Origin: Lachnospiraceae bacterium
GTDB lineage: Bacteria; Bacillota; Clostridia; Lachnospirales; Lachnospiraceae
DNA: 64,000 bases
Assembly: GCA_017513625.1 (NCBI GenBank)
Contig: JAFXEW010000035.1
Location: 544-64,543 of the forward strand
Direction: 5' to 3'
Positions within the stretch are counted from its first letter, which is position 1; each line of letters starts with the position of its first letter. Shown here one piece after another: positions 25,765-40,273 of the stretch. Below the pieces are notes generated by a model, which saw nothing but the letters and a program-made list of their open reading frames with translations, ran no database searches and was not told the origin of the DNA. The position numbers and the translations under genes were made by a program.

Positions 25765-27480
25765 TTATTTCATAGACTCAGCTTCGGAAACAAGCTTCTT
25801 CAGTGCATCCAGAGCCTCGTCAGGAAGCTTATCATAGCCTTCCTTCTTAGTAGCAAAGTCTTCTACTGCCTTCACACGGGTCTTCATAGAGTTAACCAGT
25901 GCAGTTACATAGTCAGCATCCTTGAAGTCAGGAGTAAAGTCTGCAGTCTTGCCATCCCAATCGTTCATGATTTCAATATCGGAGAAAGGTCCCCACTTCT
26001 CGAACTTATCTTTCTTCTCAACGATGGTCTCTAAGATACCTAAGGTATCAGCGGGCTTAACCTTGGTGCCCATGAAATCACCGGTGTTAACGATATAGCA
26101 GTCTACGTTCTTCTCTGCAACCAACTTCTTGAACTTCTCGTAGTCATTTACCAGAGGATAGGTTCTGAAGGGGTTAGCATAAGGTACAATACGGATTGCA
26201 TTCAGGTCAGTACCTGCAGCAACACGCTCTGCTGTAGAGGTCTTGGTAGCAAGGGTAGCACCCATTACAGATGCAAGTGCAGCACCGCTTAACTTAACAA
26301 CGGGAGGCAGCACGGGATCCTTCATGATCCAGAAGATTGCATTTACGGGAGCTTCAATCTTGTCTACACGGTTAGGAGACCATAATTTGGACTTAATAGC
26401 ACGTCCGTTACCATTTCTGATATCCTCGGTTACTAACTGAATCTTACCTTCGGAATCGTAGGTACAGGAACAGTTCTGAGCAGATAACAGATATGCGTTA
26501 TCTGCACAGCCTGTAGGATAATCGGAAGTCTTATCAAAGTAAGTAGGCTCCAGAGCTACGGAAGAACAGGTATCAGTGTTGATGATGAATGCATCATCAT
26601 GCAGAACCTTGATTTCGTACTTGCCGCCATGCTTAGCATGAGTCAGAGTAGACTTACCGGATCCGGATAAACCGTATACGGAAGCAACATACTTGGAACC
26701 GTCAGCAAGGATGTACTCCTTCTGTCCGCCGTGGCAGGATGCATAACCGTTTCTGTTTGCAATAGCCCATGCCATGGTCAGAGTACCCTTCTTATGCTCA
26801 CCAAAGTACTTCATACCCAGAATAGCTGCACAGTTCTGGTTGGTGTCAAAATAGCACAGAGTCATAGGATCGCTTAAGCAGCTGTAATCAACGTCAGGAC
26901 GGTTTCCGGGTACCCACTGGGGATCGGAGAAGATATAGATATCTGCTTCATTACCGTCGCCTACAGGCTTGGAATTCTTGTACATCTTTACATATTCATC
27001 AGACATGTACTGGAAGTTGATCATCCAGTTGTATAACAGGTTCTCTTCTCCTTCAGGAATCAGAAGGTGAGCCTTTACCATAAATTCAGGATCAAGACCT
27101 ACGAAACACTCTGCATGATACATGGTTTTCCAACGTGTTTCATAAATAGCGTCCATAATTACCTTATCAAGCTTGTCAGCATCAACACCGGGTTCGCCTT
27201 TGATACGACGGGCAGTTGCATAACGACCGGTAACAGCACCATCGTTGAATAACAAAACCTTAGCGTCCTTCTCAAGACCGAACTCTTCACCACGCAGAAC
27301 GGGCATATCGGTAACTACTGTACCGGGGGAGTTCTTTGCTAATTCATACGCTTCCTTTAAGGTATTAACCTTAACCACGTTATTGCCGTAGAATGCAGCT
27401 TCGATGATGGAACGTGTCTTGCTGAAACCTACTTTGCCGGCACCAATTTCATTAATTGGATAATAAGCCTTTGTTGACAT
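25765..27480 (-). CDS. pckA: Phosphoenolpyruvate carboxykinase (ATP-type family)
   Basis: YFGEHKKG, CHGG, P-loop GLSGSGKSTL, LHDD, RNGNGR, NTG; AAGGAGG RBS before ATG 27480. Confidence 0.85.
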   Translation of the reverse strand: MSTKAYYPINEIGAGKVGFSKTRSIIEAAFYGNNVVKVNTLKEAYELAKNSPGTVVTDMPVLRGEEFGLEKDAKVLLFNDGAVTGRYATARRIKGEPGVDADKLDKVIMDAIYETRWKTMYHAECFVGLDPEFMVKAHLLIPEGEENLLYNWMINFQYMSDEYVKMYKNSKPVGDGNEADIYIFSDPQWVPGNRPDVDYSCLSDPMTLCYFDTNQNCAAILGMKYFGEHKKGTLTMAWAIANRNGYASCHGGQKEYILADGSKYVASVYGLSGSGKSTLTHAKHGGKYEIKVLHDDAFIINTDTCSSVALEPTYFDKTSDYPTGCADNAYLLSAQNCSCTYDSEGKIQLVTEDIRNGNGRAIKSKLWSPNRVDKIEAPVNAIFWIMKDPVLPPVVKLSGAALASVMGATLATKTSTAERVAAGTDLNAIRIVPYANPFRTYPLVNDYEKFKKLVAEKNVDCYIVNTGDFMGTKVKPADTLGILETIVEKKDKFEKWGPFSDIEIMNDWDGKTADFTPDFKDADYVTALVNSMKTRVKAVEDFATKKEGYDKLPDEALDALKKLVSEAESMK

Positions 27481-27646
27481 ATAAAACGTCCTCCTTAGAT
27501 GTATTGTATTTATACCGCAAAACGGTAATTTCGAATTCAAATATGTACTACTACATATTCCCTTGTATTATCGCATAACTTATGTGAAAAAGTCAAGAAA
27601 TCAACTGAAATTAATAATGTTTTTATAAGTAAACGTTATCAGCCCG

Positions 27647-29452
27647 TTACATCTGCGAAATTTCATTACGAAGCCAGTTTTTCTCAGCTTCAGTAAGGTA
27701 CGGACTCAGCTTCTCATACACTTTATGCTGATAAGCAGTCAGATATTCCCACTGCTTTTCCGTAAGTTGCTTTCTGTCCACCGCTCCCATGTCAAGAGGC
27801 ACCCACGTCAGGGTTTCAAATCCCAGAAAACGGCCGTATTCATTGCTGTTTATATTCTTTACCACCAGGACATTTTCAATACGGATACCATGACTGCCTT
27901 CTATATACACACCGGGCTCATTGGTTACATCCATACCCGGCTCCAAAACCGTCTCTGACATTCCTTCAGCATATCTCCATCGGATATTATGTGGTCCTTC
28001 ATGCACATTGAGCATATAACCCACACCATGTCCTGTTCCGCATTTATAATCAAGTCCCAGTTCCCAAAGAGGTCGTCTGGCCAAAATGTCCAGATTCCTT
28101 CCCGTACAACCGTGAAGCCACACTGCATTGGTAAGCTCCAACATTCCTGCAGCCACAGCTGTATAATGTTTTTTCATCTCAGGAGTAATTTCCCCAAGCA
28201 CTATAGTCCGGGTAACATCCGTGGTTCCTCCCATGTACTGCCCACCTGAATCCACCAGAAGCATTCCCTCCTGCTTTAATACTGCATGTTTTTCAGGCGT
28301 CGCTTCATAATGCATCATGGCAGCATTCGCCCCATAGCCTGCTATGGTAGGAAAAGATAATCCGCAAAACTCAGGGATATCGTGCCTGCAGCATTCCAGA
28401 TAATCTGCCGCAGAAATCTCTGTAATCTCTTCCTTTCCGATGCGGTTCTTCAGCCAATAGATAAACTTGGTAACTGCCACACTGTCCTTTAAGTAAATAT
28501 CACGCATATGTAACAGCTCTACAGGATTTTTAACGGCTTTCAGATACCGTACAGGATCTTTCCTTTCGATAACTTTAATACTTGTGTTCTGATTGAAAAT
28601 CTTGAAAAAAGTATAACAGGTATCTTCTTTATCCAGCCAAATACTCTGAATCCCCTGCAAATTTTCCAGATAAGACCTTACCTCAGCGTAATCCCTTATC
28701 CTAATCATGTTATCCAGCAAATATTTTTTAACATTTTCAGATACAGCATCATCCGCCAGAAAAACCACCGCTTCACCACGGGTCAGATAAAAATAAGACA
28801 TAGCTACAGGATTACACGCCACATCACAGCCACGTATATTAAGACACCACATAATATGGTCCAGTTTGGAAATAAAGAGGCCTTCCGCCCCTTCCTCTTC
28901 CATCCGCAGCCTGATTTCATTCAATTTATCAGCCACGCTTTTACCCGTAAATTCAATAGGCAGTGCAGAAACCGGACCGCAAGGAAAACCCGGACGGTCC
29001 GGCCAGATATCCTCATACATATCCTCCGTAAGCTGCAGTCTTCCTCCTTTAGAGGTAACAATCTGTTCAAAACGAAGCCCCTCTTCTGCAGTCAACACTC
29101 TGCCGTCAACTCCAAGTTCCTCTCCGTTCCGAAGCTTTTCTTTCAAAAAAACAGACAGTGCCGGAACACCTTCCTCCCCCATCTTAAACAAGGTAATATC
29201 CGTACCTTCCAATTCTGCCTCCGCCTGAATGAAATAGCGGCCATCCGTCCAAAGTCCGGCACCATCCTGCCATACAAGCAAACAGCCGTTTGAACCGGTA
29301 AATCCTGAGAAAAACTCTCTTGCTTTGAAATAATCACTGACATATTCGGAATGATGATAATCCGCAGTAGGTATCAAATAGTAATCCAACCCTTTTTTCT
29401 GCATTTTCTGCCGCAATAATGCTAAACGTTTCTTTACCTCTGTCTTACACAT
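27647..29452 (-). CDS. Xaa-Pro aminopeptidase (M24B)
   Basis: D.HHSEY, WTDGRY, DSGGQY.GGTTDVTRT, GTGHGVG, VHEGP, NEPGVY, GIRIEN. Confidence 0.9.
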   Translation of the reverse strand: MCKTEVKKRLALLRQKMQKKGLDYYLIPTADYHHSEYVSDYFKAREFFSGFTGSNGCLLVWQDGAGLWTDGRYFIQAEAELEGTDITLFKMGEEGVPALSVFLKEKLRNGEELGVDGRVLTAEEGLRFEQIVTSKGGRLQLTEDMYEDIWPDRPGFPCGPVSALPIEFTGKSVADKLNEIRLRMEEEGAEGLFISKLDHIMWCLNIRGCDVACNPVAMSYFYLTRGEAVVFLADDAVSENVKKYLLDNMIRIRDYAEVRSYLENLQGIQSIWLDKEDTCYTFFKIFNQNTSIKVIERKDPVRYLKAVKNPVELLHMRDIYLKDSVAVTKFIYWLKNRIGKEEITEISAADYLECCRHDIPEFCGLSFPTIAGYGANAAMMHYEATPEKHAVLKQEGMLLVDSGGQYMGGTTDVTRTIVLGEITPEMKKHYTAVAAGMLELTNAVWLHGCTGRNLDILARRPLWELGLDYKCGTGHGVGYMLNVHEGPHNIRWRYAEGMSETVLEPGMDVTNEPGVYIEGSHGIRIENVLVVKNINSNEYGRFLGFETLTWVPLDMGAVDRKQLTEKQWEYLTAYQHKVYEKLSPYLTEAEKNWLRNEISQM

Positions 29453-29499
29453 TTCCGCCCTTTCTAATCCTTCCCCTATTTACATAAACATTTCTCTGA

Positions 29500-30165
29500 T
29501 TAATAACCTTCCGTTACCTGACCTTTTAAAAGTCCCACTGCACGGGAAGTTCCGATACGCTCACATCCGAGACTGATAAACATCTCCAAATCTTCCAGTG
29601 TGGAAACACCGCCTGCAGCTTTCATCTTTACATTGGGACCGATATGTGCTTTAAACAGTTCAATATCAGCTTTGGTCGCACCGTCCGTACCAAAACCTGT
29701 AGATGTCTTAATATAGTCAGCACCGGCATTGGTAACCGCTTTACACATAGCGATTTTTTCTTCCTCGGTAAGATAGCAGGTTTCAATGATAACCTTCAGA
29801 ATGTGTTCTCCGCAGGCTGCTTTCATAGTACGGATTTCCTCTTCTACTTTATCATAAAGACCGTTCTTTACATCGGAAACATTGATTACCATATCGATTT
29901 CATTACAACCGTCTTCTAAAGCCTTCTTAACCTCTGCTACCTTGGCTTCCGTCACACAGTAACCGAGAGGGAATCCCACTACAGTACAAATATTTATCTT
30001 ATCACCATAAGTATCATGGATTCTTTTTATATATGCAGGAGGCACGCACACGCTGGCCGTATGATACTGTATTGCCTCATCGCAAAGCACTTTTATGTCC
30101 TCCCATGTAGCAAAAGCCTTTAACTGTGTGTGGTCTACCTTTTTTAACATTTCTGCTGCTGTCAT
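29500..30165 (-). CDS. deoC: Deoxyribose-phosphate aldolase
   Basis: DHTQLK, VVGFPLG, EIDMV, KVIIET, IKTSTGF, KAAGG, RIGTS; GGAGG before ATG 30165. Confidence 0.95.
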   Translation of the reverse strand: MTAAEMLKKVDHTQLKAFATWEDIKVLCDEAIQYHTASVCVPPAYIKRIHDTYGDKINICTVVGFPLGYCVTEAKVAEVKKALEDGCNEIDMVINVSDVKNGLYDKVEEEIRTMKAACGEHILKVIIETCYLTEEEKIAMCKAVTNAGADYIKTSTGFGTDGATKADIELFKAHIGPNVKMKAAGGVSTLEDLEMFISLGCERIGTSRAVGLLKGQVTEGY

Positions 30166-30236
30166 ATTCACATCCTCCATTAAATTTTTAGGTTTTAGCT
30201 ATATACCTGATTTTTACTTCTTACATTTATTCATAT

Positions 30237-30271
30237 AAAAAATCCATGCACTCTTTTTGCAAGTGCATGGA
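30237..30271 (-). terminator. Terminator after thrC
   Basis: TCCATGCACT/AGTGCATGGA arms with a T-run. Confidence 0.7.
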
Positions 30272-30284
30272 CCTTTTCCTTTTA

Positions 30285-31772
30285 TTACATATTCAGGAAG
30301 TCTCTCACTACCTGCTTCATTTCATCAACTTCACACTGTTTATCATGCAATACGGGTGCAGTACGGATCTCTTCAATTGCACCGGGTACCTTTACATTAG
30401 CCAGCTTGGACAATTCATCCACCAGCTCAAAATCTCCCATAGCATCATACTTTGTATCAATTGCATTCATAACGCTTCTGGTAAACTTAAAAGGACTTGC
30501 AGTAGATGCAATCACTGTTTTTGTGTCATCCTTTGTCTCAGCTTTATATTTCTCATATACTGCGGCAGCAACAGCTGTATGGGTATCAATAACATATCCG
30601 CAATCATTGTAGATACTGCGAATAATATCCGCTGTCTCATCTTCGGTTGCATAATTACCGTAGAAATCATTCAGCTGCTGTTTCATATCATAGGAAATCT
30701 CATATCTTCCCTGGCCGTTTAATGCAGTCATTAATGCCTTGTTCTTATCCGCATCGTTACCTGCAATACGGTAAATCAGTCTCTCCAGATTGCTGGAAAT
30801 TAATATATCCATGGAAGGAGATGTGGTCAACATAAACTCTCTGTTTCTGTCATATGTACCTGTACTGAAGAAATCGTACAAAACCTTATTATCATTGGAT
30901 GCACAAATCAGCTTAGCAATAGGCAGTCCCATATTCTTTGCATAGAAAGCAGCCAGAATATTGCCGAAATTACCGGTAGGTACTACTACATTGACAGCCT
31001 CTCCGGAAGCAATCTTCTCTTCCTTCAGTAACTTAGCATATGCATATACATAATAACAAATCTGGGGCACCAGGCGGCCGATATTAATAGAGTTTGCAGA
31101 GGAGAACTGGAAGCCCTTTTCTGCCATCTCTGCAGCCAGCTCCTTATCGGAGAAAATCTGCTTTACCCCGGTCTGTGCATCGTCAAAATTACCATGAATA
31201 CCTACTACCAGTGTATTATCACCCTTCTGGGTAACCATCTGCTTTTCCTGGATGGGACTAACACCGTTCTTAGGATAAAATACGATAATACGGGTTCCTT
31301 CTACACCTGCAAAGCCGGCAAGTGCAGCCTTACCGGTATCACCGGAGGTAGCGGTAAGGATTACGATTTCTTTGTCCATATGATTCTTACGTGCAGAAGT
31401 AATCATCAGATGAGGAAGAATGGATAAAGCCATATCCTTAAATGCAATGGTAGAACCATGGAATAATTCCAGATAATATGCGCCTTCTGCTTCTACCAAA
31501 GGAGCAATTTCTTCCGTGTCAAACTTTGCGTCATAAGCATTGTTGATACAATTCTTTAATTCTTCCTCGGTAAAGTCGGTTAAAAGCAGCTTCATTACTT
31601 CGTAGGCTACTTCCTGATAACTCATTTCTGCCAGTTCTTCCGGACTCTTGTCCAAAGCAGGAATCTGCTGGGGTACAAATAAACCTCCGTCATCGGACAA
31701 GCCTTTCAAGATAGCTTGTGATGCGGTTACGGGAGCACTGTCACTTCTGGTACTCTTATATAACACTTCCAT
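30285..31772 (-). CDS. thrC: Threonine synthase
   Basis: DGGLFVP, ELFHG.T.AFKD (PLP lysine), ATSGDTG, SANSINIGRL, PTGNFGN, SPSMDI..SSNLER. Confidence 0.95.
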   Translation of the reverse strand: MEVLYKSTRSDSAPVTASQAILKGLSDDGGLFVPQQIPALDKSPEELAEMSYQEVAYEVMKLLLTDFTEEELKNCINNAYDAKFDTEEIAPLVEAEGAYYLELFHGSTIAFKDMALSILPHLMITSARKNHMDKEIVILTATSGDTGKAALAGFAGVEGTRIIVFYPKNGVSPIQEKQMVTQKGDNTLVVGIHGNFDDAQTGVKQIFSDKELAAEMAEKGFQFSSANSINIGRLVPQICYYVYAYAKLLKEEKIASGEAVNVVVPTGNFGNILAAFYAKNMGLPIAKLICASNDNKVLYDFFSTGTYDRNREFMLTTSPSMDILISSNLERLIYRIAGNDADKNKALMTALNGQGRYEISYDMKQQLNDFYGNYATEDETADIIRSIYNDCGYVIDTHTAVAAAVYEKYKAETKDDTKTVIASTASPFKFTRSVMNAIDTKYDAMGDFELVDELSKLANVKVPGAIEEIRTAPVLHDKQCEVDEMKQVVRDFLNM

Positions 31773-31880
31773 ATCTAAACCTCTCATTCTGTAGTGCACA
31801 TGACCTTATTTATCTTCCGTTATGTTTTCATTAACAGCATTCTTCGGTCCAATGTGGTACTCAAATTGCAAATTTGCTAC

Positions 31881-31909
31881 ATTATAGCACAAATAGTATC
31901 TCTACGCAA
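31881..31909 (-). promoter_or_regulatory. sigmaA promoter of thrC, divergent from the AP2-like gene
   Basis: TTGCGT-N17-TATAAT with TG extension. Confidence 0.6.
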
Positions 31910-32012
31910 CACTTTAAACGACTAAAGCAACAGCCATAAATCCCTTGTTTATTGTGCAAAAAGTATGATATACTGATATTATAAATATTACTATTCATCC
32001 ATGAGGATTTCC

Positions 32013-32861
32013 ATGAAACAAAAAGACCATAAAAAGACCAATGTATACATAACAGATAAAATCCATTATGAAGGAGTATTTACTGCAATAAAAAAGGACG
32101 GTACTCTCTATTATCGTGCTTCCCTCACCCACAAAACCAGACACATCAGTCTGGGCAGTCATACTACACCTTCCGCAGCCCACGAAGCTTACCTGGAGGG
32201 CCAGCGTTTGCTTCATGGCGAAACCGCAATCATGGATTATACCTCCGAATCCCCTTTAGCATTTGAGAAATGGGTCATTCTGATAAACTTCCGTGATAAC
32301 GGTATTTATTTCGGTACCCCTATTTATGTGGGGCAGAAAATGTTTTATTACTATTTATCTCCCACCCATGTACTAAAATTTGATATGGACGATCTTTTTT
32401 ACTTTGCATCCCATAAAATCATGTGTCGCGGAAATCACTATTTTGTGGCAGATTACGGTATGCAGGTCAATATTGCTTCCCGTTTCAATATTAAAAACTA
32501 TGCCGTACCCGGCAGGGACTTCCGATTTCTAAACGGTGACTCCACTGACTTTAGACGTGAAAATCTGGAAATAACAAACACCTACCACGGTGTTATTCCC
32601 GAACACAAAAACGGACAGTACTATTATACTGTCCGCATTCATATCGTAGGTAATTATCTGGTGGGCAAGTACGCCACTGAATGGGAGGCCGCCATAGCAT
32701 ACAATAAAGCCATTGACATTCTGCGCAAACAGGGCATCCGCAAAAACTTTATCCCCAACTACATAGAAGGCATCTCTCCCAGTAAATATGCGGATATTTA
32801 CACAGAAATATCCATATCGCCCAAATTATATACTATTTCCGGGAATAATCAATCAGACTGA
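32013..32861 (+). CDS. Hypothetical protein with two AP2-like DNA-binding domains flanking a degenerate HNH module
   Basis: YEGV...YRASL...SLGSHTTPSAAHEAY; FRFLNGDSTDFRRENLEI; YHGV...YTVRI...LVGKYATEWEAAIAYNKA. GAGG RBS before ATG 32013; TTGTTT...TG.TATACT promoter upstream. Confidence 0.7.
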   Translation: MKQKDHKKTNVYITDKIHYEGVFTAIKKDGTLYYRASLTHKTRHISLGSHTTPSAAHEAYLEGQRLLHGETAIMDYTSESPLAFEKWVILINFRDNGIYFGTPIYVGQKMFYYYLSPTHVLKFDMDDLFYFASHKIMCRGNHYFVADYGMQVNIASRFNIKNYAVPGRDFRFLNGDSTDFRRENLEITNTYHGVIPEHKNGQYYYTVRIHIVGNYLVGKYATEWEAAIAYNKAIDILRKQGIRKNFIPNYIEGISPSKYADIYTEISISPKLYTISGNNQSD

Positions 32862-33918
32862 TACTCATCCTTGCATATCCGGATATACCGTCGATTTTCA
32901 CACTGTCACTATACTCCCACATGGTAAATTTGTAGGGATAATCAGGTATATCACCATGTTCACCGTACCATACATCATATTCACTTAATTTAGCAGGGTT
33001 CAGCTCACAAATCAGCCAGCTCTTATCTCCGTATAAAACAGGATGATATCCCGCACCTTCAATCACTTCCATAAAAGCTCTTGCTATCTTTGTTCTGTCA
33101 TTTCCGGATAAATCATCAGTCCTGCTTTCGTCATTAATAATATCGTTCATATCAAATCCTACAGGAAATTTTATATCAAGGCCCTCTATACTCTTCAGGA
33201 CCATGGAAGCCTCTTCCCTTGCTTCTTCTATAGTGATTGCCTGGGAACAAAAATACACGCCCACATCCAGGCCTGCCGCATCTGCTTTCTCTACATTTTC
33301 TTTAAAAGCCTCATCTGCTACTATTTTGCCGGTACTATATCCTCTGGTGCCTGCTTTTATCATACAGAAATCAATCCCACCTGACTTTAACTTCTCAAAA
33401 TCAACCGCTCCCGACTCTTCAGATATCCTGACACCGGCATAGGAAACCTCTTTATCTTCCATGAAATATTTCATAATATTTCCATGTCGTATGAAGGAAG
33501 TAGGTTCATATCTGTTAGCAGGAATACTGTCATTAATAGCCACCCATTCCTGACTGTCGTCCTTAAATGTCACCAGCGTACGGTATCCGTCCGATAAGCC
33601 GTCGCCCGTTTCTTCCTCCTCAGTCCAGTGAGATTCATATGCTGTTTCCGTAGAAACATCTTCCTCTTCTTCAGAAGAATATTTGTCCCAAAAATCCAAA
33701 TCTTCGGGCTTTAAAGTACCTGCAGTAAAAGATTCCTCCGATGTATTACTCTCCTGCACTAACAAGGATTCTTTTTCATTATCACCGTCTGAGGATTGGA
33801 CATTGCTTACCAGTACAATCACAAAAATCAAAAGAATAAACAATGTCACACTGACAACGGCTGTAAAAACAGCCGAACTCATACCGCCGCTCTCTTCATA
33901 ATCATCCGGCAACTGCAT
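32833..33918 (-). CDS. Membrane-anchored GH25 (lysozyme M1-like) protein, probably inactive
   Basis: TM segment, acidic linker, GIDFCMIKAG.RGY, GLDVGVYF.SQA..EEA.EEA, MWEYS..IDGI. Confidence 0.8.
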   Translation of the reverse strand: MQLPDDYEESGGMSSAVFTAVVSVTLFILLIFVIVLVSNVQSSDGDNEKESLLVQESNTSEESFTAGTLKPEDLDFWDKYSSEEEEDVSTETAYESHWTEEEETGDGLSDGYRTLVTFKDDSQEWVAINDSIPANRYEPTSFIRHGNIMKYFMEDKEVSYAGVRISEESGAVDFEKLKSGGIDFCMIKAGTRGYSTGKIVADEAFKENVEKADAAGLDVGVYFCSQAITIEEAREEASMVLKSIEGLDIKFPVGFDMNDIINDESRTDDLSGNDRTKIARAFMEVIEGAGYHPVLYGDKSWLICELNPAKLSEYDVWYGEHGDIPDYPYKFTMWEYSDSVKIDGISGYARMSISLIDYSRK

Positions 33919-33948
33919 ATATCCACCTCCTTCCGGATTCTTATATCA

Positions 33949-34746
33949 TTATGCCCTCACTATACACTTTTTAGGACATTTCTCTGCACAAACACCACAT
34001 CCGGTACACTTCTCATGATCGATAACAGCATGAAAATCCTCTACATGCACCGCTTCCTGAGGACAGTTCTTCACACAAATACCGCAACCGATACATCCTG
34101 CCTGACAGGCTTTCATAGTCACAGGCCCTTTGTCCTTAGAGCTGCAGCCAACAACCATATGCGCACTATAGGGAATCAGACTGATTAAATGCTTAGGACA
34201 TGCATCCACACATTTGTTGCAGGCCTTACATTTCTCTTTATCTACTACAGCCACACCATCCACTACGGAAATGGCCTCAAAGGGACATACCTTTACGCAG
34301 GTACCGTAACCAAGACAACCATGTGAGCAACTTTTGGGGCCGCCTGCAGGCACAAAACTCATGATAGCGCAATCTTTCTCACCATAATACTCATAGTCAG
34401 AATGAGTTTTTTCGCAGGTACCGATACAATGGACAAAAGCCACCATGCGCTCGCCTGCCTCTGCCTCTACACCCATGATTTCTCCTATAGCCGCAGCAAC
34501 ACTTTCTCCGCCCACAGGACATGCATTCACAGGTGCTTCTCCTTTTACAATGGCTGAAGCTAATCCTGAGCAGCCGGGGAAACCGCATCCTCCGCAGTTA
34601 TTTCCGGGCAATGCCCCCAACACCTTTTCTTCTCTTTCATCCACTTCCACTTTAAATTTCAGGCCTGCAACTCCCAGAAACAGACCCACAAATATTCCAA
34701 CTATACCCACAATCAGAGTCGCTGTAATTATTCCAGTTATATTCAT
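33949..34746 (-). CDS. rnfB: Rnf complex subunit B
   Basis: LPGNNCGGCGFPGC, CPVGG, several CxxCxxCxxxCP motifs. Confidence 0.9.
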   Translation of the reverse strand: MNITGIITATLIVGIVGIFVGLFLGVAGLKFKVEVDEREEKVLGALPGNNCGGCGFPGCSGLASAIVKGEAPVNACPVGGESVAAAIGEIMGVEAEAGERMVAFVHCIGTCEKTHSDYEYYGEKDCAIMSFVPAGGPKSCSHGCLGYGTCVKVCPFEAISVVDGVAVVDKEKCKACNKCVDACPKHLISLIPYSAHMVVGCSSKDKGPVTMKACQAGCIGCGICVKNCPQEAVHVEDFHAVIDHEKCTGCGVCAEKCPKKCIVRA

Positions 34747-34782
34747 ACGCAATCCTTACCTTTCCCTTCTGCTGAACATTAA

Positions 34783-35367
34783 TCAGAGAAGACCGGAAAA
34801 TCCGCAAAATGCTATTGCCATAAGCCCTGCTGTCAAAAGTACCGTGGGCATCCCTTTGAAGGACTCGGGAATATCATTAAATTCCATCTTTTCCCTGATA
34901 CCCGCCAGAATAATAATGGCAATGGTAAAACCAAGGGCTGTCGCAAATCCGTTCACAATACCGGCAAGAATGCCATATTCCTTCTGTACATTGGTAAGTG
35001 CTACACCCAGAACCGCACAGTTAGTTGTAATCAATGGCAGGTACACACCAAGGGACTGGTACAATGAAGGAATTACCTTACGCAAAAACATCTCCACAAA
35101 CTGCACAAGTGCCGCAATGACAAGAATAAACACTATGGTCTGCAAATACTCCGCTTCCAGAGGTTGCAAGATAAATTTATAAATAAGACCCGCCACTGCA
35201 CTTGCAAGGGTAATAACAAATATAACAGCCGCTCCCATACCTGCAGCCGTATTGGTCTTTTTGGACACTCCAAGGAAAGGACAAAGTCCTAAAAACTGGC
35301 TGAGCACTACATTACTTACCAGAGAGGAACCAACTAACAATAACAATAATTCTTTTACTGTATCCAT
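34783..35367 (-). CDS. rnfA: Rnf complex subunit A
   Basis: QFLGLCPFLGVS, YLPLITTNCAVLG. Confidence 0.9.
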   Translation of the reverse strand: MDTVKELLLLLVGSSLVSNVVLSQFLGLCPFLGVSKKTNTAAGMGAAVIFVITLASAVAGLIYKFILQPLEAEYLQTIVFILVIAALVQFVEMFLRKVIPSLYQSLGVYLPLITTNCAVLGVALTNVQKEYGILAGIVNGFATALGFTIAIIILAGIREKMEFNDIPESFKGMPTVLLTAGLMAIAFCGFSGLL

Positions 35368-36102
35368 TTACCTTTCCTCCTCTTTCTCAGTTTCCGTATC
35401 GGCCTCTGCCGCTTTTTCATCATAAAAACGGGAGCTGCAACCGCTTTCCGCACAGGAAGCACAATCGTGTCCGCATCCTGAAGGCTTACGCACTTCCTTA
35501 CCTGAAGCTTTTGCCCTGATCTTCAGATAATTCTGAAATGCCGTCAATACAGCCAGTACAAAGAACGCACCGGGGGCAAGTATAAAAATATTAATAGGCA
35601 CATACCCCTCAGGCATAACCGTCATTTCAAACAAAGTACCTGCTCCCAAAAGTTCCCTTACAGCACCTATCAAGGTCAGCGCAAGTGAAAAACCAAGGCC
35701 CATGCCGATACCGTCAAAAAGGGAGGGCAACATACTGTGTGAATATGCATAACTTTCCGCTCTGCCCAGGATGATACAATTAACCACTATTAAAGGTATA
35801 TAAACACCAAGGGCTTTATTTAAGTCCGGTAAATATGCTTTTAAAAGCAATTCAACACAGGTTACAAAGGTTGCAATAATAACAATAAATGCAGGAATAC
35901 GCACTCTGGAAGGAATCACCTTACGAAGTGCGGAAATAATCAGGTTACTCATGGCTAATACTACAGTGGTAGTAAGCCCCATTCCCAGACCATTCTTGGC
36001 CGAAGTGGTCACCGCAAGGGTGGGACACATACCAAGCACAAGCACAAAAGTAGGGTTTTCTTTGATCATTCCGTTGTACAGCCGTTCCAACAAATTCTTC
36101 AT
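35368..36102 (-). CDS. rnfE: Rnf complex subunit E
   Basis: ENP..LGMCPTLAVT, PLIVVNCIILGRAE; C-terminal CxxxCxxC tail. Confidence 0.9.
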   Translation of the reverse strand: MKNLLERLYNGMIKENPTFVLVLGMCPTLAVTTSAKNGLGMGLTTTVVLAMSNLIISALRKVIPSRVRIPAFIVIIATFVTCVELLLKAYLPDLNKALGVYIPLIVVNCIILGRAESYAYSHSMLPSLFDGIGMGLGFSLALTLIGAVRELLGAGTLFEMTVMPEGYVPINIFILAPGAFFVLAVLTAFQNYLKIRAKASGKEVRKPSGCGHDCASCAESGCSSRFYDEKAAEADTETEKEEER

Positions 36103-36735
36103 TTACTGTCCCTCCTTTGCCATGCCGTTTGTCTGTAAAATATCCTGTACAGCCACTAACGCACCGTTTACCGCATTGGTTACGGCCTTAGTGGTAATGG
36201 TTGCGCCGCTTATGGCATCTATTTCACTTTCAGAGGTGCTTCCCGTCTTGGTATATGTAAAGCTTTCCACTGCCTTATCGGCAAACTGAGGAACCAGCAC
36301 CTTCTCCGCAAGCATACCCAGTCCGGGAGTTTCAGATATCTCTAAAATACTGATACCGTTCAGCTTTCCGGATGTGGTAATACCCGCATACAGCACAATA
36401 TCTCCGGCATAAGCTTCTTCAGATATGGCCTCCACCACATATCCCAAGAGTCTGCCTTCTGCATCTTTTGCTTCATATACAGTACCGATGGATACACCTT
36501 TATCCTGAATCAGTGTTAAAGTATCTTCCGTCAATTGCAAAGAATATTCTGCAAAAGAGTCCGCCTCTTCAAACACTTCTCCGCATGCCCTTTGAATTGC
36601 CAGCTCCTGTTGTCTGGCAATGGGTTCCTTGGTAAGTTCATATACAAACCCCAAAAGCAAACCCGCACCCAGTGTAATAATCAAAAGCACCAGGGCTTCC
36701 TTTAACATGATTTTTACATCGCTGTTATTTTTCAT
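36103..36735 (-). CDS. rnfG: Rnf complex subunit G
   Basis: ETPGLG; FMN-attachment motif DAISGATIT. Confidence 0.9.
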   Translation of the reverse strand: MKNNSDVKIMLKEALVLLIITLGAGLLLGFVYELTKEPIARQQELAIQRACGEVFEEADSFAEYSLQLTEDTLTLIQDKGVSIGTVYEAKDAEGRLLGYVVEAISEEAYAGDIVLYAGITTSGKLNGISILEISETPGLGMLAEKVLVPQFADKAVESFTYTKTGSTSESEIDAISGATITTKAVTNAVNGALVAVQDILQTNGMAKEGQ

Positions 36736-37661
36736 CCCTTATTCCTCCTTACACCGAAGGCTGCAGGCTTCGTTACTTTTTCAATTAAAGGCACCAGCAG
36801 ATTACCTATGATAATGGCATAGGAAACACCTTCCGCACCGGGCCCGAACACACGGAACACACCTGTCATAATACCTAAAAAGACACCGAATACAATCTGT
36901 CCCATGGGTGTAACCGGTCTGGTCACATAATCCGTTGCCATAAAGAACGCACCAAGCATCAGGCCGCCACCTGCCAGCTGTGCGGATATATACCGGGGAT
37001 CCAAACCGTTCCCACCGAATAATACAATAAATATCACAAAGGTAACAATATAACTACCGGGAACTTTCAGGTCAATAATCCCTAAAAGAATCAGGATACA
37101 TGCTCCGATAATAATGGCAATCATACTGGTTTCACCAATGGTTCCTGCCACATTACCCATAATCATATCATGTACATTTACCTCTCCACCTGCTTTTAAC
37201 ACAGCCAGCGGTGTCGCTCCCGAATATGCATCACAAGCAAAATCAGTCATATATGCAGGAAAAGAAATAAGCAGGAAACATCTGGCTCCCAAAGCAGGAT
37301 TCATAAAATTCTGTCCCAGGCCTCCAAATAAAAGTTTTACTACTAAAATGGCAAAAACTCCGCCCAGTGCCGCCATCCAGAGCGGAATACCTACCGGAAG
37401 ATTCAGCGCAAGCAATAGTCCCGTAACTACGGCAGACAAATCACTTATCGTAGGCTTCTTTCTGCAAAAACCATATACAAATTCAGTAAGCACCGTAGAT
37501 GCAACTGTTACCAATATTACCCAGAGTGCCCGGATTCCGAAATTATAAATACCAAATCCGGTGGCTGGTAATAAAGCAATAATCACTGCCATCATAATAC
37601 CGGAAGTGGTAACTTTAGACCGGATATGAGGATTTGCAGATACTTTATACATTTCACTCAC
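36732..37661 (-). CDS. rnfD: Rnf complex subunit D
   Basis: FGGLGQNFMNPA, SGATPL, GETS, FFMATDYVT. Confidence 0.9.
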   Translation of the reverse strand: MSEMYKVSANPHIRSKVTTSGIMMAVIIALLPATGFGIYNFGIRALWVILVTVASTVLTEFVYGFCRKKPTISDLSAVVTGLLLALNLPVGIPLWMAALGGVFAILVVKLLFGGLGQNFMNPALGARCFLLISFPAYMTDFACDAYSGATPLAVLKAGGEVNVHDMIMGNVAGTIGETSMIAIIIGACILILLGIIDLKVPGSYIVTFVIFIVLFGGNGLDPRYISAQLAGGGLMLGAFFMATDYVTRPVTPMGQIVFGVFLGIMTGVFRVFGPGAEGVSYAIIIGNLLVPLIEKVTKPAAFGVRRNKG

Positions 37662-37673
37662 TTTTGCATCCTC

Positions 37674-38990
37674 CTACTTTTTTCTTTTTGCAAGTAAAGT
37701 TTTACGCATGGATTTAATCTGCTGTGTCAAATGACGCTTAGCTGGACATGCAAAAGAGCAACATCCGCATTCCACACATTCCATACCGTAATTTTTTATA
37801 AATTCCTCTTCCATTCCATGTGCAGCATATTCCGCAAGCATACCCGGCATTATCCTGCTGGGACAGGCTTCCATACATTTTCCGCAGTTAATACATGCAC
37901 TGGGTTCCATTTCAGCCACCTGGTCCTTTGTAAATGCCAGTAATGCCGTGGATATCTTGGTGGTAGGCACGTTAAGGTCAAACATGGCAAATCCCATCAT
38001 AGGCCCACCGCAGATAATCTTCTCCGGTGTCCCTTTGAAACCTCCTGCCGCTTCAAGCAATTCCTGATAATTAGTTCCTATTTTAACTCTGAAGTTCCTT
38101 GGATTCATAACCGCATCACCAGTTACGGTAATGATTCTCTCCATAAGCGGCTTACCTTCCATTACTGCCCTGTAAACTGCCACTATGGTATCCACATTAT
38201 TTACGATACATCCCACATCTGCGGGTAGATTAGCCGAACTGATTTTACGGCCGGTAGTGGCAAATATCAATTGACGCTCTGCACCCTGGGGATATTTGGT
38301 TTTCAAAGCCTTTACGGTAATACGTGTTTCATTTGCAGTCAGCTGCTTTAAAAGCTTGATACAATCCGGTTTATTATCCTCTACCGCTAAAATGCCCTGC
38401 GCTTTATCAAACAGTCTCAAAATGATTTTCAAACCGCTGATTAACTTTTCCGGTTCTTCCAGCATTCTGCGGTAATCACTGGTGAGATAGGGTTCACACT
38501 CTGCACAATTGGCTATTACATACTCAATTCTATCCGGCTCTTTAGGCGACAACTTCACATAGGTAGGGAAACCGGCTCCGCCCATTCCCACAATACCTGC
38601 CTCTTTGATGCAATGGATAATGTCCTCCTTTTCCATCTTTTCAAGAGGCATTTCAGGATAAAATCCAACATCTTCATATATGCCGTCATTCTCAATAATA
38701 ATACTTTTTACCATATCTCCCGTAACCACTCGGCGGTCTTCTATAGCCTTAACGGTTCCGGACACGGAAGCATAGACAGGTGCAGATATAAAGCCGCTGC
38801 TTTCTGCGATTTTCTGTCCTGCAAGTACCCTGTCACCCTTTGCCACAACAGGCGTTGCAGGTGCACCGATATGCTGGGATAAAGGATACACCAGTTCTCC
38901 CTTGGGAAGCAGGTCTGCGATTGGTTTATCTTTCGACAGGTCTTTCCCGTCATAGGGATGTATTCCCCCCACAAAAGTCAACTTAGCCAT
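37674..38990 (-). CDS. rnfC: Rnf complex subunit C
   Basis: QHIGAP, GMGGAGFPT, ECEPYLT, KYPQGAE, GGPMMG, two 4Fe-4S motifs. Confidence 0.95.
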   Translation of the reverse strand: MAKLTFVGGIHPYDGKDLSKDKPIADLLPKGELVYPLSQHIGAPATPVVAKGDRVLAGQKIAESSGFISAPVYASVSGTVKAIEDRRVVTGDMVKSIIIENDGIYEDVGFYPEMPLEKMEKEDIIHCIKEAGIVGMGGAGFPTYVKLSPKEPDRIEYVIANCAECEPYLTSDYRRMLEEPEKLISGLKIILRLFDKAQGILAVEDNKPDCIKLLKQLTANETRITVKALKTKYPQGAERQLIFATTGRKISSANLPADVGCIVNNVDTIVAVYRAVMEGKPLMERIITVTGDAVMNPRNFRVKIGTNYQELLEAAGGFKGTPEKIICGGPMMGFAMFDLNVPTTKISTALLAFTKDQVAEMEPSACINCGKCMEACPSRIMPGMLAEYAAHGMEEEFIKNYGMECVECGCCSFACPAKRHLTQQIKSMRKTLLAKRKK

Positions 38991-39169
38991 AATCTGTCCT
39001 CGCTTTTACATTTCAACAAATATTACACACAACTATCATAAATATACTAAATTTTTAAAGAAAATACTACAGAAATTTCAAAAAATGTGCTATGATTCAT
39101 ATAGAATTATATGCATATCAGTTTATAAAATATATCCATACCGAAACCAATCGGCAGACAGGAGGTTCC

Positions 39170-40273
39170 ATGCAGATAATCACTCAGACGCTTGAAAATT
39201 TCATTCCCGGGTATCCCATTGAGAAGCTGGCTCCCGCGGACCAGATTTTGTTTATTGACATCGAAACCACAGGTTTTACTGCCAAAACATCATTCCTCTA
39301 TCTCATAGGCTGTGCCTTTTACAAGGATAATTCATGGCAGTTAATCCAATGGTTTGCCGAGAACTATACGGAAGAAAAGGATATTCTCACCGCATTCTTT
39401 ACTCTTGCTGCAGATTATCCCTATCTGGTACATTTTAACGGCAATAATTTTGATTTACCCTTCCTGTTACAGAAATGTATCCAATTTGAACTGCCCTATG
39501 ATTTTTCTCACATGGAAGGTATTGATCTTTACAGAAGGGTATCTCCTTTTAAATTCTTTTTAAAACTGGAAAACTGCAAGCAAAAGACCATCGAACAGTT
39601 CTTGGGAATTAAAAGAGAGGATACTTTCAGCGGCGGAGAATTAATCAGTCTTTACCACGATTATGTGAAAGAGCCGGACGAAACCACAGCCGGACTGCTG
39701 CTCCTCCATAATGCCGAGGATATACAGGGCATGATGCAATGCTTGCCTATCCTGGCCTACGGAGACCTCCTTTGCACTCCTCTAAAGGTCAAAAAAGTAC
39801 AGGCTAATTCCTATCGGAATATAAATGGCGAAAAGTGTAAGGAATTATATATGTACGTAGTTCCTCCGGTAGCGCTTCCCGTGCCCATAAGTTATACTTC
39901 AAATGACTGTTATTTCAAGGGTGAGCAGGATCTTATCACATTGAAAGTGCCCCTTATAGAAGCAGAGATGAAATATTTCTATGCCAACTACAAAGATTAT
40001 TATTATCTGCCTGCAGAGGATGTAGCATTACACAAATCCGTTGCTTCCTTCGTAGAAAAGGAACATCGCCAGCAGGCAACCGCACATAATTGCTATACAC
40101 GTAAGCAATCCGAGTATCTCCCTCAATGGGACCGCCTGTTCTCTCCCCTTTTCACAAAGGATTATGACAGCAAAGAATATTATTTTGAATTGACGGATGA
40201 AATGAAAAAAGACCGTCAGGCATTTAATCAATACGCCCAGCATGTTCTATGCATGATGGTCGAAAACTATTAA
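39170..40273 (+). CDS. YprB/RNase H-like DEDD 3'-5' exonuclease domain protein
   Basis: FIDIETTG, HFNGNNFDLPFL, IDLY, HNAED; GGAGG before ATG 39170. Confidence 0.8.
   Translation: MQIITQTLENFIPGYPIEKLAPADQILFIDIETTGFTAKTSFLYLIGCAFYKDNSWQLIQWFAENYTEEKDILTAFFTLAADYPYLVHFNGNNFDLPFLLQKCIQFELPYDFSHMEGIDLYRRVSPFKFFLKLENCKQKTIEQFLGIKREDTFSGGELISLYHDYVKEPDETTAGLLLLHNAEDIQGMMQCLPILAYGDLLCTPLKVKKVQANSYRNINGEKCKELYMYVVPPVALPVPISYTSNDCYFKGEQDLITLKVPLIEAEMKYFYANYKDYYYLPAEDVALHKSVASFVEKEHRQQATAHNCYTRKQSEYLPQWDRLFSPLFTKDYDSKEYYFELTDEMKKDRQAFNQYAQHVLCMMVENY

What the first reader, a model, noticed from the sequence alone, without database searches (positions are those of the whole stretch)
32013..32861. AP2 / dead-HNH / AP2 protein: candidate domesticated homing endonuclease
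Seen: the C-terminal half follows the phage HNH-AP2 endonuclease layout. LKFDMDDL resembles the pre-HNH (I/F)D.ED motif. FRFLNGDSTDFRRENLEI resembles VDHINGN.LDNRR.NLR, with the catalytic His and the first conserved Asn both replaced by Phe and the distal metal-ligand helix apparently deleted. YHGV...LVGKYATEWEAAIAYNKA resembles AP2. A second AP2-like unit sits at the N-terminus. The gene has its own promoter between thrC and the rnf operon, with no intron, phage or IS context. Known: plant AP2/ERF and apicomplexan ApiAP2 factors are thought to derive from such endonucleases. Inferred: an independent bacterial domestication into a two-AP2 transcription factor or nucleoid protein.
Basis: partly seen in the sequence, partly recalled or inferred. 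Interest (0 to 1): 0.75.

Follow-up and report, generated by a model that had tools for sequence, protein, structure and literature searches.

The report
Nuclease-dead two-AP2 DNA-binding protein
This gut Lachnospiraceae gene encodes a protein descended from a phage-type DNA-cutting homing endonuclease that has lost its cutting residues, keeps two AP2 DNA-binding modules and is inherited as an ordinary chromosomal gene, so it most likely binds DNA without cutting it.

Summary

The gene is not mobile. It is single-copy in its genome and present in 82 of 200 sampled Lachnospiraceae genera. It was found in 0 of 291 genomes of other Clostridia families. It is syntenic with thrC, a SleB-like hydrolase gene and a GH25 gene. 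Purifying selection is strong (pooled dN/dS 0.10; dead-HNH domain 0.07).

The best reading is a domesticated, non-cutting DNA-binding protein, probably a transcription regulator. Its target and its DNA binding are untested. No Pfam or NCBIfam family covers it, and three literature searches found no paper on it. An earlier report of this scan reached the same reading in another genome.

The parts
31945..31974 (+). Putative sigma-A-type promoter: TTGTTT (31945-31950), 18-nt spacer including a TG at 31966-31967, then TATACT (31969-31974)
   Evidence: Read. The tool's stricter scan did not call it. An extended -10 (TGnTAnAnT) lies within 120 nt upstream in 69 of 114 orthologous loci, against a mean of 7.2 (maximum 14) in 200 shuffles. 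No transcription start has been mapped.
32003..32007 (+). Shine-Dalgarno-like GAGGA, 5 nt before the ATG
   Evidence: Sequence. It favours the start at 32013 over the ATG at 32001.
32013..32861 (+). Coding sequence, 282 aa plus stop (protein P0001)
   Evidence: 4177 relatives at E<=1e-3. AlphaFold2 model with pLDDT 93.8 and pTM 0.83.
32013..32069 (+). Lineage-specific basic N-terminal extension (aa 1-19), low confidence in the model
   Evidence: Most orthologues start 2-8 residues before the conserved GV. Mean pLDDT is 64-73 for the first 20 residues.
32070..32237 (+). N-terminal AP2 unit (aa 20-75): three strands plus a helix
32238..32516 (+). Helix plus beta-sheet body of the endonuclease-derived middle domain (aa 76-168), including LKFDMDDL (aa 121-128)
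   Evidence: Folded alone with pLDDT 92.1. 12 viral-model hits at E<=1e-3, the named ones mostly HNH or homing endonucleases. hhalign places FD.DDL on the FDLEDY block of the canonical family. Lowest dN/dS of the protein, 0.069, for aa 76-190.
32517..32573 (+). Degenerate HNH hairpin (aa 169-187, DFRFLNGDSTDFRRENLEI). The catalytic Asp-His is replaced by Arg-Phe, and the following metal-binding helix is missing.
   Evidence: Pfam HNH_3 at aa 171-186, E 0.2. Alignment to the canonical family. Census of 115 orthologues: position 172 is F in 113, Y in 1, Q in 1; D169, N174, D179 and N184 are invariant; there are always 8 residues to the AP2 Gly.
32580..32762 (+). C-terminal AP2 unit (aa 190-250) with the invariant AAIAYNKA helix
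32763..32858 (+). Conserved helical tail (aa 251-282; helices at 256-265 and 270-274)
   Evidence: Y259 is invariant and Y263 nearly so. dN/dS 0.13.

Best explanation
The gene encodes a Lachnospiraceae-specific chromosomal protein that descends from a phage-type HNH-AP2 homing endonuclease.

Shown here:
- It keeps the endonuclease's body and one AP2 unit and has a second AP2 unit at the N-terminus.
- It has lost the catalytic Asp-His pair and the metal-binding helix.
- It is single-copy, syntenic and under strong purifying selection, most strongly in the dead nuclease domain.

Inferred:
- The two AP2 units bind two DNA half-sites.
- The dead HNH body acts as a rigid spacer or an extra DNA- or partner-contact surface.
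- The protein occupies specific DNA sites without cutting them and acts as a transcription regulator expressed from a vegetative, sigma-A-type promoter.
- Candidate targets, named with low confidence, are its own promoter and the flanking cell-wall hydrolase genes. These are the divergent SleB-like gene found in most relatives and the convergent GH25 gene.
For: Architecture and descent.
- All 38 of 38 family members match phrog_99 (HNH endonuclease); best E 9.9e-23, window protein 2.1e-10.
- The full model has 40 viral-model hits at E<=1e-3, dominated by HNH or homing endonucleases and AP2/ERF proteins.
- The middle domain alone has 12 such hits.

Loss of catalysis.
- Position 172 is never His in 115 orthologues, and the helix that carries two invariant Asn in the canonical family is absent in 115 of 115.

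Domestication.
- One copy in the window's genome.
- 82 of 200 other genera of the family carry it, and only one genome has two full copies.
- 0 of 291 genomes in 75 other Clostridia families carry it.
- At least 543 species-level genomes hold a relative.
- Neighbours are conserved. Of the 80 closest loci, 77 have GH25 downstream, 62 have a SleB-like gene upstream and 53 have thrC. 18 of 20 divergent genera have thrC within 3 kb.
- Distances track those of thrC (r 0.75).
- Pooled dN/dS over 8 independent pairs is 0.099: N-AP2 0.164, middle domain 0.069, C-AP2 0.088.
- Within-population variants in the gene: 5 synonymous and 2 non-synonymous.

Promoter.
- A conserved extended -10.

Precedent.
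- CapR+AP2 proteins of Bacillota prophages bind DNA and silence transcription, and this needs the AP2 domain (bioRxiv 10.64898/2026.02.23.707548, passages read).
Against: - No experiment or computation here shows DNA binding.
- The window protein itself does not reach any Pfam AP2 threshold.
- Sequence-only support for the HNH remnant is weak: hhalign probability about 3%.
- No solved structure matches the middle domain.
- Four residues in the remnant (D169, N174, D179, N184) are invariant, so a remodelled active site is not excluded.
- The neighbour-target idea is weakened in three ways. This window and its nearest relative L068 lack the SleB-like neighbour and the conserved upstream block. 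3 of 10 genomes without the gene still have thrC next to a SleB-like gene. Conserved gene order within one family can be plain inheritance.
- Presence in only 82 of 200 genera shows the gene is dispensable in much of the family.
Confidence: 0.7

Rival explanations
1. Abundant architectural or nucleoid-associated DNA-binding protein, or global regulator, with low sequence specificity rather than a local regulator.
For: In many orthologous loci the promoter looks strong: an A/T-rich block 33-36 nt upstream of an extended -10. The gene is kept under selection in genomes that have lost the SleB-like neighbour (window and L068). The N-terminal extension in this lineage is basic.
Against: The gene was not found in 118 of 200 sampled genera of the family, which is unusual for a core nucleoid protein. 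Two distinct, tightly conserved AP2 units and a rigid model (pTM 0.83) suggest a defined bipartite site. There are no expression-level data; only one 241-nt metatranscriptome contig lies in the gene.
Confidence: 0.15
2. Site-masking immunity factor: a dead endonuclease that sits on the recognition site of related phage HNH-AP2 endonucleases, or on phage DNA, and blocks cleavage or phage gene expression.
For: It derives from the same protein kind that phages of this family carry. Canonical CapR-HNH-AP2 genes sit in a prophage-like setting, next to a replicative-helicase-like gene, in Lachnospiraceae. Phage CapR+AP2 proteins act by occupying DNA sites (passages).
Against: The gene shows stable synteny, vertical inheritance and dN/dS of about 0.1. 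Defence genes usually show rapid turnover and diversifying selection. It does not lie in a defence island; its neighbours are thrC, deoC, GH25 and rnf. The PADLOC library was not scanned.
Confidence: 0.07
3. Still an active nuclease or nickase that uses a remodelled site built from the invariant D169, N174, D179, R181 and N184.
For: These residues are invariant or nearly so in 115 orthologues, and the domain has the lowest dN/dS. One orthologue (L033) has His at the 172 position.
Against: The general-base His is absent in 115 of 115 sequences and in 38 of 39. The helix that supplies the metal ligands in the canonical family is deleted throughout. A single-copy chromosomal nuclease with no partner or immunity gene nearby is hard to picture.
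Confidence: 0.05
4. RNA-binding or ribosome-associated protein rather than a DNA-binding one.
Against: These scores are lower than those for the DNA-bound plant AP2 domains and lie within the noise range the tool describes. Sequence-profile hits are only to DNA-binding AP2 factors. No RNA family was found nearby.
Confidence: 0.03

Closest known systems
Phage and prophage HNH_3-AP2 homing endonucleases (Pfam PF13392 + PF00847; PHROG 99; 'IPA-HNH' of Barth, Dunham & Seed 2023, PMC10448857, passages read)
   Same: Same order of parts: a beta-rich body with the FD.[DE]D block, then the HNH hairpin, then AP2. 38 of 38 family members match phrog_99. The folds match viral HNH-endonuclease models. The Asp, Arg, Asn and Leu of the D-N-R-K-x-N-L-R block are kept.
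   Different: The catalytic Asp-His is replaced (Arg/variable, then Phe). About 16 residues carrying the two invariant Asn of the metal-binding helix are deleted. There is an extra AP2 unit at the N-terminus and no CapR zinc module. The gene is single-copy, chromosomal, syntenic and vertically inherited rather than mobile.
Plant AP2/ERF factors, especially double-AP2 proteins such as WRINKLED1 (PDB 7WQ5), and ApiAP2 factors
   Same: Two AP2 units in one chain. The best solved-structure relative by profile is WRI1 (E 7.9e-7), and the folds match. The proposed evolutionary route, from HNH-AP2 endonuclease to DNA-binding factor, is the one suggested for plants (Magnani et al. 2004, recalled and not read here; the family is cited as ref. 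45 in PMC10448857).
   Different: The two units are separated by a 115-residue dead-nuclease domain instead of a short linker. The helix motif is AAIAYNKA, as in phage AP2 (L027). The host is bacterial. Whether the DNA-contact residues of plant AP2 are kept was not tested.
CasPR proteins (CapR + AP2) of Bacillota prophages, and CapR of phage satellites, a domesticated endonuclease used as a repressor
   Same: Non-cutting relatives of homing endonucleases that work by occupying DNA. In CasPRs the AP2 domain is required for silencing (bioRxiv 10.64898/2026.02.23.707548, passages). Netter et al. 2021 was seen only as a reference title. CapR-repeat + AP2 genes occur in Lachnospiraceae genomes.
   Different: Those proteins are encoded by phages or satellites, have CapR zinc modules and no HNH remnant. 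This protein is a host gene with no CapR, two AP2 units and a retained dead HNH body.
The same family reported earlier in this scan (e1-3748643, another genome)
   Same: Same architecture, and the same reading as a nuclease-dead HNH-AP2 DNA-binding protein of gut Lachnospiraceae.
   Different: That report concerns a different genome. Added here: restriction to one family, dN/dS by domain, the conserved hydrolase neighbourhood, the promoter footprint, and the comparison of genomes with and without the gene.

Membership tests
HNH_3 endonuclease domain (PF13392) | Score at or above Pfam's gathering cut-off (24.8 bits) | tested here: not met
   11.7 bits, E 0.2, aa 171-186. 0 of 38 members hit at E<=0.01 and 8 of 38 at E<=5, best 0.022.
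HNH_3 endonuclease domain (PF13392) | Catalytic Asp-His pair in the first strand of the hairpin | tested here: not met
   R171 and F172 align with the invariant D145 and H146 of the canonical family. Position 172 is F in 113, Y in 1 and Q in 1 of 115. His occurs in 1 of 39 sequences (L033).
HNH_3 endonuclease domain (PF13392) | Helix after the hairpin carrying the Asn/His metal ligand | tested here: not met
   8 residues lie between N184 and the AP2 Gly in 115 of 115. The canonical family has about 24, with invariant N169 and N172.
HNH_3 endonuclease domain (PF13392) | Structural Asn and the D-x-R-x-x-N-L block of the hairpin | tested here: met
   D179, R181, N184 and L/I185 are conserved and align with D155, R157, N160 and L161.
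HNH_3 endonuclease domain (PF13392) | Overall fold like known HNH endonucleases | tested here: inconclusive
AP2 domain (PF00847) | Sequence match to the AP2 profile | tested here: inconclusive
   The window protein has no Pfam AP2 hit. 13 of 38 relatives hit at E<=0.01, best 9.3e-10. The family profile hits WRI1 at E 7.9e-7. hhalign to the AP2 of canonical HNH-AP2 gives 97.1% (N unit) and 78.3% (C unit).
AP2 domain (PF00847) | Three-stranded antiparallel sheet packed on one helix | tested here: met
AP2 domain (PF00847) | Sequence-specific DNA binding through the sheet | not testable with these tools
Contact residues were not mapped.
Homing endonuclease gene (selfish mobile element) | Mobile, patchy, often multi-copy, in phage, intron or intein context | tested here: not met
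   One copy in the genome. Conserved chromosomal neighbours. Co-divergence with thrC. The two 'phage' records are chromosomal fragments. The one viral-contig copy sits beside leuC/leuD-like genes at the contig edge.
PHROG 99 (HNH endonuclease, HNH + AP2) | Significant match to the family profile | tested here: met
   E 2.1e-10 for the window protein. 38 of 38 members match at E<=1e-3. The match rests mainly on the AP2 part (profile positions 215-271).

The most novel reading that the evidence does not exclude
A whole bacterial family has turned a phage homing endonuclease into a host transcription factor. This would be an independent bacterial parallel to the origin of plant AP2/ERF and apicomplexan ApiAP2 factors. 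The dead nuclease body is kept as the most constrained part, and the protein controls the membrane-anchored cell-wall hydrolases that flank it (SleB-like and GH25) through a bipartite site in the conserved divergent intergenic block.
Probability: 0.2. Interest if true: 0.75.

Novelty: new variant of a known kind. Interest (0 to 1): 0.55.

Why it matters
AP2 is the textbook case of a DNA-binding domain thought to have moved from selfish endonucleases into eukaryotic transcription factors. Here the intermediate state is preserved in a living lineage. The protein still shows the endonuclease body, is demonstrably disabled, and is fixed as a host gene in at least 543 species-level genomes in the collection scanned, many of them gut bacteria. 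It offers a tractable system, with cultured carriers such as Waltera intestinalis and Lachnospiraceae bacterium A4 and 28-4. That system could show how a homing endonuclease becomes a regulator and what the dead nuclease domain is kept for. It also gives a name and a testable function to a protein family that Pfam and NCBIfam leave unannotated.

Tried and rejected
- Homodimer prediction (two copies with alignment A2): no verdict, score 0.11 against a mark of 0.42. It is not used as evidence either way.
- ESM Atlas search with the middle domain: only the protein's own family and low-score viral hypothetical proteins.
- NCBIfam: nothing relevant.
- Rfam over 27000-40000: no riboswitch or T-box that could explain the thrC linkage.
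- Sporulation-regulator idea, raised by the SleB-like and GH25 neighbours: dropped. The conserved promoter elements look like a vegetative extended -10, and I found no consistent sporulation-sigma pattern by eye. This was not tested formally.
- Operator search: the conserved block upstream of most orthologues is absent from the window and was not found elsewhere in the window's genome, which is 82% complete, with one exact pattern. Small repeats in the window's intergenic region are weak.
- Phage origin of close relatives: the two phage-collection hits and one viral-contig hit are chromosomal DNA.
- Expression: one metatranscriptome run holds a 241-nt contig inside the gene (32113-32353) and two in the GH25 gene. 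The library may contain DNA, and parts without cover prove nothing.
- A PADLOC scan and a test of presence against sporulation genes were considered but not run.

Full report
**The gene.** An ORF runs from 32001 to 32861 on the + strand. The ATG at 32013 follows a GAGGA five bases upstream and gives a 282-aa protein. Most orthologues start only 2-8 residues before the conserved Gly-Val at residues 21-22. The first 19 residues are therefore a lineage-specific basic extension, and they are modelled with low confidence. Pfam gives only a sub-threshold HNH_3 match at aa 171-186 (E 0.2; 11.7 bits against a cut-off of 24.8). NCBIfam gives nothing relevant. PHROGs gives phrog_99, 'HNH endonuclease', at E 2.1e-10.

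**The family.** The word-indexed search found 4177 proteins at E<=1e-3. The best 120 are 67-100% identical and 267-299 aa long, and those that carry a name are 'hypothetical protein' from Lachnospiraceae, Clostridium sp. or Acetatifactor. The exhaustive search over 50%-identity representatives found 394 at E<=1e-3 and 61 at E<=1e-30, many of them fragments. This is a tight family rather than a broad superfamily. The 80 best are mostly Acetatifactor and other Lachnospiraceae MAGs. Cultured strains among them include Waltera intestinalis and Lachnospiraceae bacterium A4, 28-4 and 1XD21-87.

**The two AP2 units.**
- A profile of 38 members hits the double-AP2 plant factor WRI1 at E 7.9e-7, followed by TEM1, ERF096 and ERF1.
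- 13 of 38 members reach Pfam AP2 at E<=0.01, but the window's own protein does not.
- The AlphaFold2 model built on that alignment is confident (pLDDT 93.8, pTM 0.83). It shows a three-stranded sheet plus helix at both ends.
- hhalign on domain alignments gives N-unit vs C-unit probability 96.3% (E 1.5e-9). N-unit vs the AP2 of canonical prophage HNH-AP2 proteins gives 97.1% (E 6.6e-11), and C-unit vs the same gives 78.3% (E 1.8e-5).

**The middle domain.**
- I collected a canonical comparison family around a prophage gene of a Lachnospiraceae genome (L048). Its members have a CapR-type Cys module, then HNH, then AP2. In its alignment the Asp-His pair, the D-N-R-K-x-N-L-R block and two Asn in the following helix are invariant.
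- hhalign of the window family's middle domain against it has low probability (2.8%, E 0.016 over 72 columns; 3.6%).
FD.DDL lies on FDLEDY. R171-F172 lie on Asp-His. D179, F180, R181, N184 and L185 lie on D, N, R, N and L.
- Independent support comes from structure. The middle domain folded alone (39 sequences, pLDDT 92.1) has 12 Foldseek hits at E<=1e-3 among predicted viral proteins (best 3.9e-6, TM by query 0.5-0.59). The rows that carry a name in the top 50 are mostly HNH or homing endonucleases.
- The full model has 40 such hits. No solved structure matches the middle domain.
- In 115 orthologues the His position is Phe in 113, Tyr in 1 and Gln in 1. D169, N174, D179 and N184 are invariant. 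The distance from N184 to the AP2 Gly is 8 residues in all 115, against about 24 in the canonical family. One orthologue outside that set (L033) has His there.
- By the usual criteria the nuclease is dead, and the loss is ancestral to the family.

**Not a mobile element.**
- The window's genome (82% complete) has one copy and no other Pfam HNH_3 or AP2 match. The AP2 control rang in no reference genome, so that negative result is weak.
- One genome per genus of the same family was sampled, and 82 of 200 have the gene (63 of 166 among high-quality genomes, counting the window's own). Only one genome has two full copies, and three matches contain an in-frame stop.
- Across the class, 4 of 9 genomes of the family have it, and 0 of 291 genomes in 75 other families do at E<=1e-10.
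- Canonical HNH_3 genes are much rarer in the family: 3 of 60 genomes.
- The two phage-collection hits are UNVERIFIED virome scaffolds. One carries thrC and the other carries another chromosomal gene of this window.
- The one close viral-contig hit sits at a contig edge beside leuC/leuD-like genes.
- G+C of the gene (0.38-0.41) is within the range of its flanks.

**Neighbourhood.**
- In the window the gene lies between thrC (divergent; Thr_synth_N, PALP) and a membrane-anchored GH25 gene (convergent, overlapping the 3' end by 29 bases). rnfB and the rest of rnf follow.
- In the 80 closest species the usual order is thrC, then a membrane-anchored SleB-like hydrolase gene (its ORF aligns to the conserved cell-wall-hydrolase core; Pfam was not run on it), then the gene, then GH25, then rnfB. 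GH25 is present in 77 of 80, the SleB-like gene in 62 and thrC in 53.
- Across all 116 loci with a called gene, 81 have the SleB-like gene divergently upstream, typically about 80-250 bp away.
- In 20 more distant genera, 18 have thrC within 3 kb. In some the gene lies directly upstream of thrC on the same strand.
- The window and its nearest relative L068 (80% identity) lack the SleB-like neighbour. Three other Hydrolase_2 genes lie elsewhere in the genome.
- Of 10 high-quality genomes without the gene, 3 still have thrC next to a SleB-like gene. That pair therefore does not depend on the gene.
- On a quick thrC tree of 59 genomes with the gene and 10 without, those with it are clustered (0 of 500 shuffles as low). 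At least 6 changes are needed, of which 2 are forced by well-supported branches. Most genomes without it branch near the base and two are nested. This fits one early gain followed by losses, but a single-gene quick tree is weak evidence.
- Pairwise distances of the protein and of thrC correlate (Mantel r 0.75; 0 of 999 permutations as high).

**Selection.**
- Nei-Gojobori estimates on 54 pairs with dS between 0.05 and 1.5 give a median dN/dS of 0.16.
- Eight non-overlapping pairs with dS<1, pooled, give 0.099 overall: 0.164 for the N-terminal AP2, 0.069 for the middle domain, 0.088 for the C-terminal AP2 and 0.133 for the tail.
- The disabled nuclease body is the most constrained part, so it is functional rather than a relic.
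- For the window against L068, dN is 0.13 and dS about 1.6, near saturation.
- Metagenome contigs of three DNA runs and one RNA run show 7 differences inside the gene, 5 synonymous and 2 not.

**Expression signals.**
- Upstream of the window's gene lie TTGTTT, an 18-nt spacer containing TG, and TATACT. The tool's stricter scan did not call this site.
- Across orthologues an extended -10 occurs within 120 nt upstream in 69 of 114, against 7.2 in shuffles.
- In loci with the SleB-like neighbour there is also a well-conserved A/T-rich block 33-36 nt upstream of it, and a second block about 18 nt further.
- These blocks may be an UP-like element, parts of the divergent promoter, or binding sites. 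They are absent from the window. One exact pattern for them finds nothing elsewhere in its genome.
- One metatranscriptome run holds a 241-nt contig inside the gene. This is a weak hint of transcription.

**Interpretation.**
- Shown: descent from an HNH-AP2 endonuclease, loss of the catalytic residues, two AP2 units, and fixation as a host gene under purifying selection in one bacterial family.
- Inferred: non-cutting DNA binding with a bipartite site and a regulatory role.
- Precedents exist for such a change of function. CapR+AP2 'CasPR' proteins of Bacillota prophages silence cas genes by binding DNA, and this needs the AP2 domain (bioRxiv 10.64898/2026.02.23.707548; search listing and passages). 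HNH plus AP2 is a recognised homing-endonuclease family in phages (PMC10448857; passages). That paper also discusses domestication of such genes.
- The proposal that plant AP2 derives from these endonucleases is recalled (Magnani et al. 2004) and was not read here.
- Three full-text searches found no paper on this Lachnospiraceae family. The library lacks most subscription journals, and supplements were closed.
- An earlier report of this scan (e1-3748643) describes the same family in another genome with the same reading. Within the scan this is therefore a second sighting, extended here.

**Verdict.** The thing is a new variant of a known kind: a host-domesticated, nuclease-dead HNH-AP2 protein. 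It is of moderate to high interest because it preserves an intermediate in the route from endonuclease to transcription factor and is open to experiment in cultured gut bacteria.

Noticed in passing
Loci L003-L147, 60-110 nt upstream of the orthologous gene (for example L126, L005, L121, L136, L014); absent at window 31800-32012: A strongly conserved intergenic block across many genera. An A/T-rich element lies 33-36 nt upstream of the extended -10, and a second conserved element lies about 18 nt further. Both sit between the divergent SleB-like gene and this gene. They could be an UP-like element, the divergent promoter, or an operator.
   Followed up: partly
Window 31800-32012, compared with L069-L147: The membrane-anchored SleB-like cell-wall hydrolase gene lies between thrC and this gene in 62 of the 80 closest species. 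It is missing from the window and from its nearest relative L068. Three other Hydrolase_2 genes lie elsewhere in the genome (G000 contigs C34, C32 and C106).
   Followed up: partly
Window 32833-33918 (minus strand): The GH25 muramidase-like gene has an N-terminal membrane anchor, and its 3' end overlaps the 3' end of the AP2 gene by 29 bases (convergent). This pairing is kept in 77 of 80 close species.
   Followed up: partly
Proteins P0128, P0147, P0152, P0154, P0155: Longer relatives (about 350 aa, 34-46% identical) carry a third AP2 unit at the C-terminus. Their hosts are unknown.
   Followed up: no
L049-L052, L054, L055, L057, L059, L061: Lachnospiraceae genomes carry genes with one to five CapR-type Cys repeats followed by a single AP2 unit and no HNH. 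This is the architecture of the phage CasPR silencers described in a 2026 preprint.
   Followed up: no
L021 (MT837267.1) and L022 (MT836856.1): Two GenBank 'Bacteriophage sp.' virome scaffolds marked UNVERIFIED carry bacterial chromosomal genes (thrC at 79% identity in L022). They are probably bacterial DNA in a virome preparation.
   Followed up: yes
L089 (CAVGMD010000043.1): A record titled 'Bacteroidaceae bacterium' carries the full Lachnospiraceae-type locus (thrC, SleB-like, this gene, GH25, rnfB). This suggests a mislabelled or mis-binned assembly.
   Followed up: no
G173:C16 (L002), G167:C65, G195:C10: Three orthologues contain one in-frame stop each (TGA, TGA, TAA). In L002 it lies near the C-terminus. 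These may be pseudogenes, truncations or assembly errors.
   Followed up: no
Window 31772-31799: The mechanical thrC ORF starts at a GTG at 31799. Homologues begin at the ATG at 31772 (MEVLYK...), which leaves a 240-bp divergent intergenic region.
   Followed up: partly
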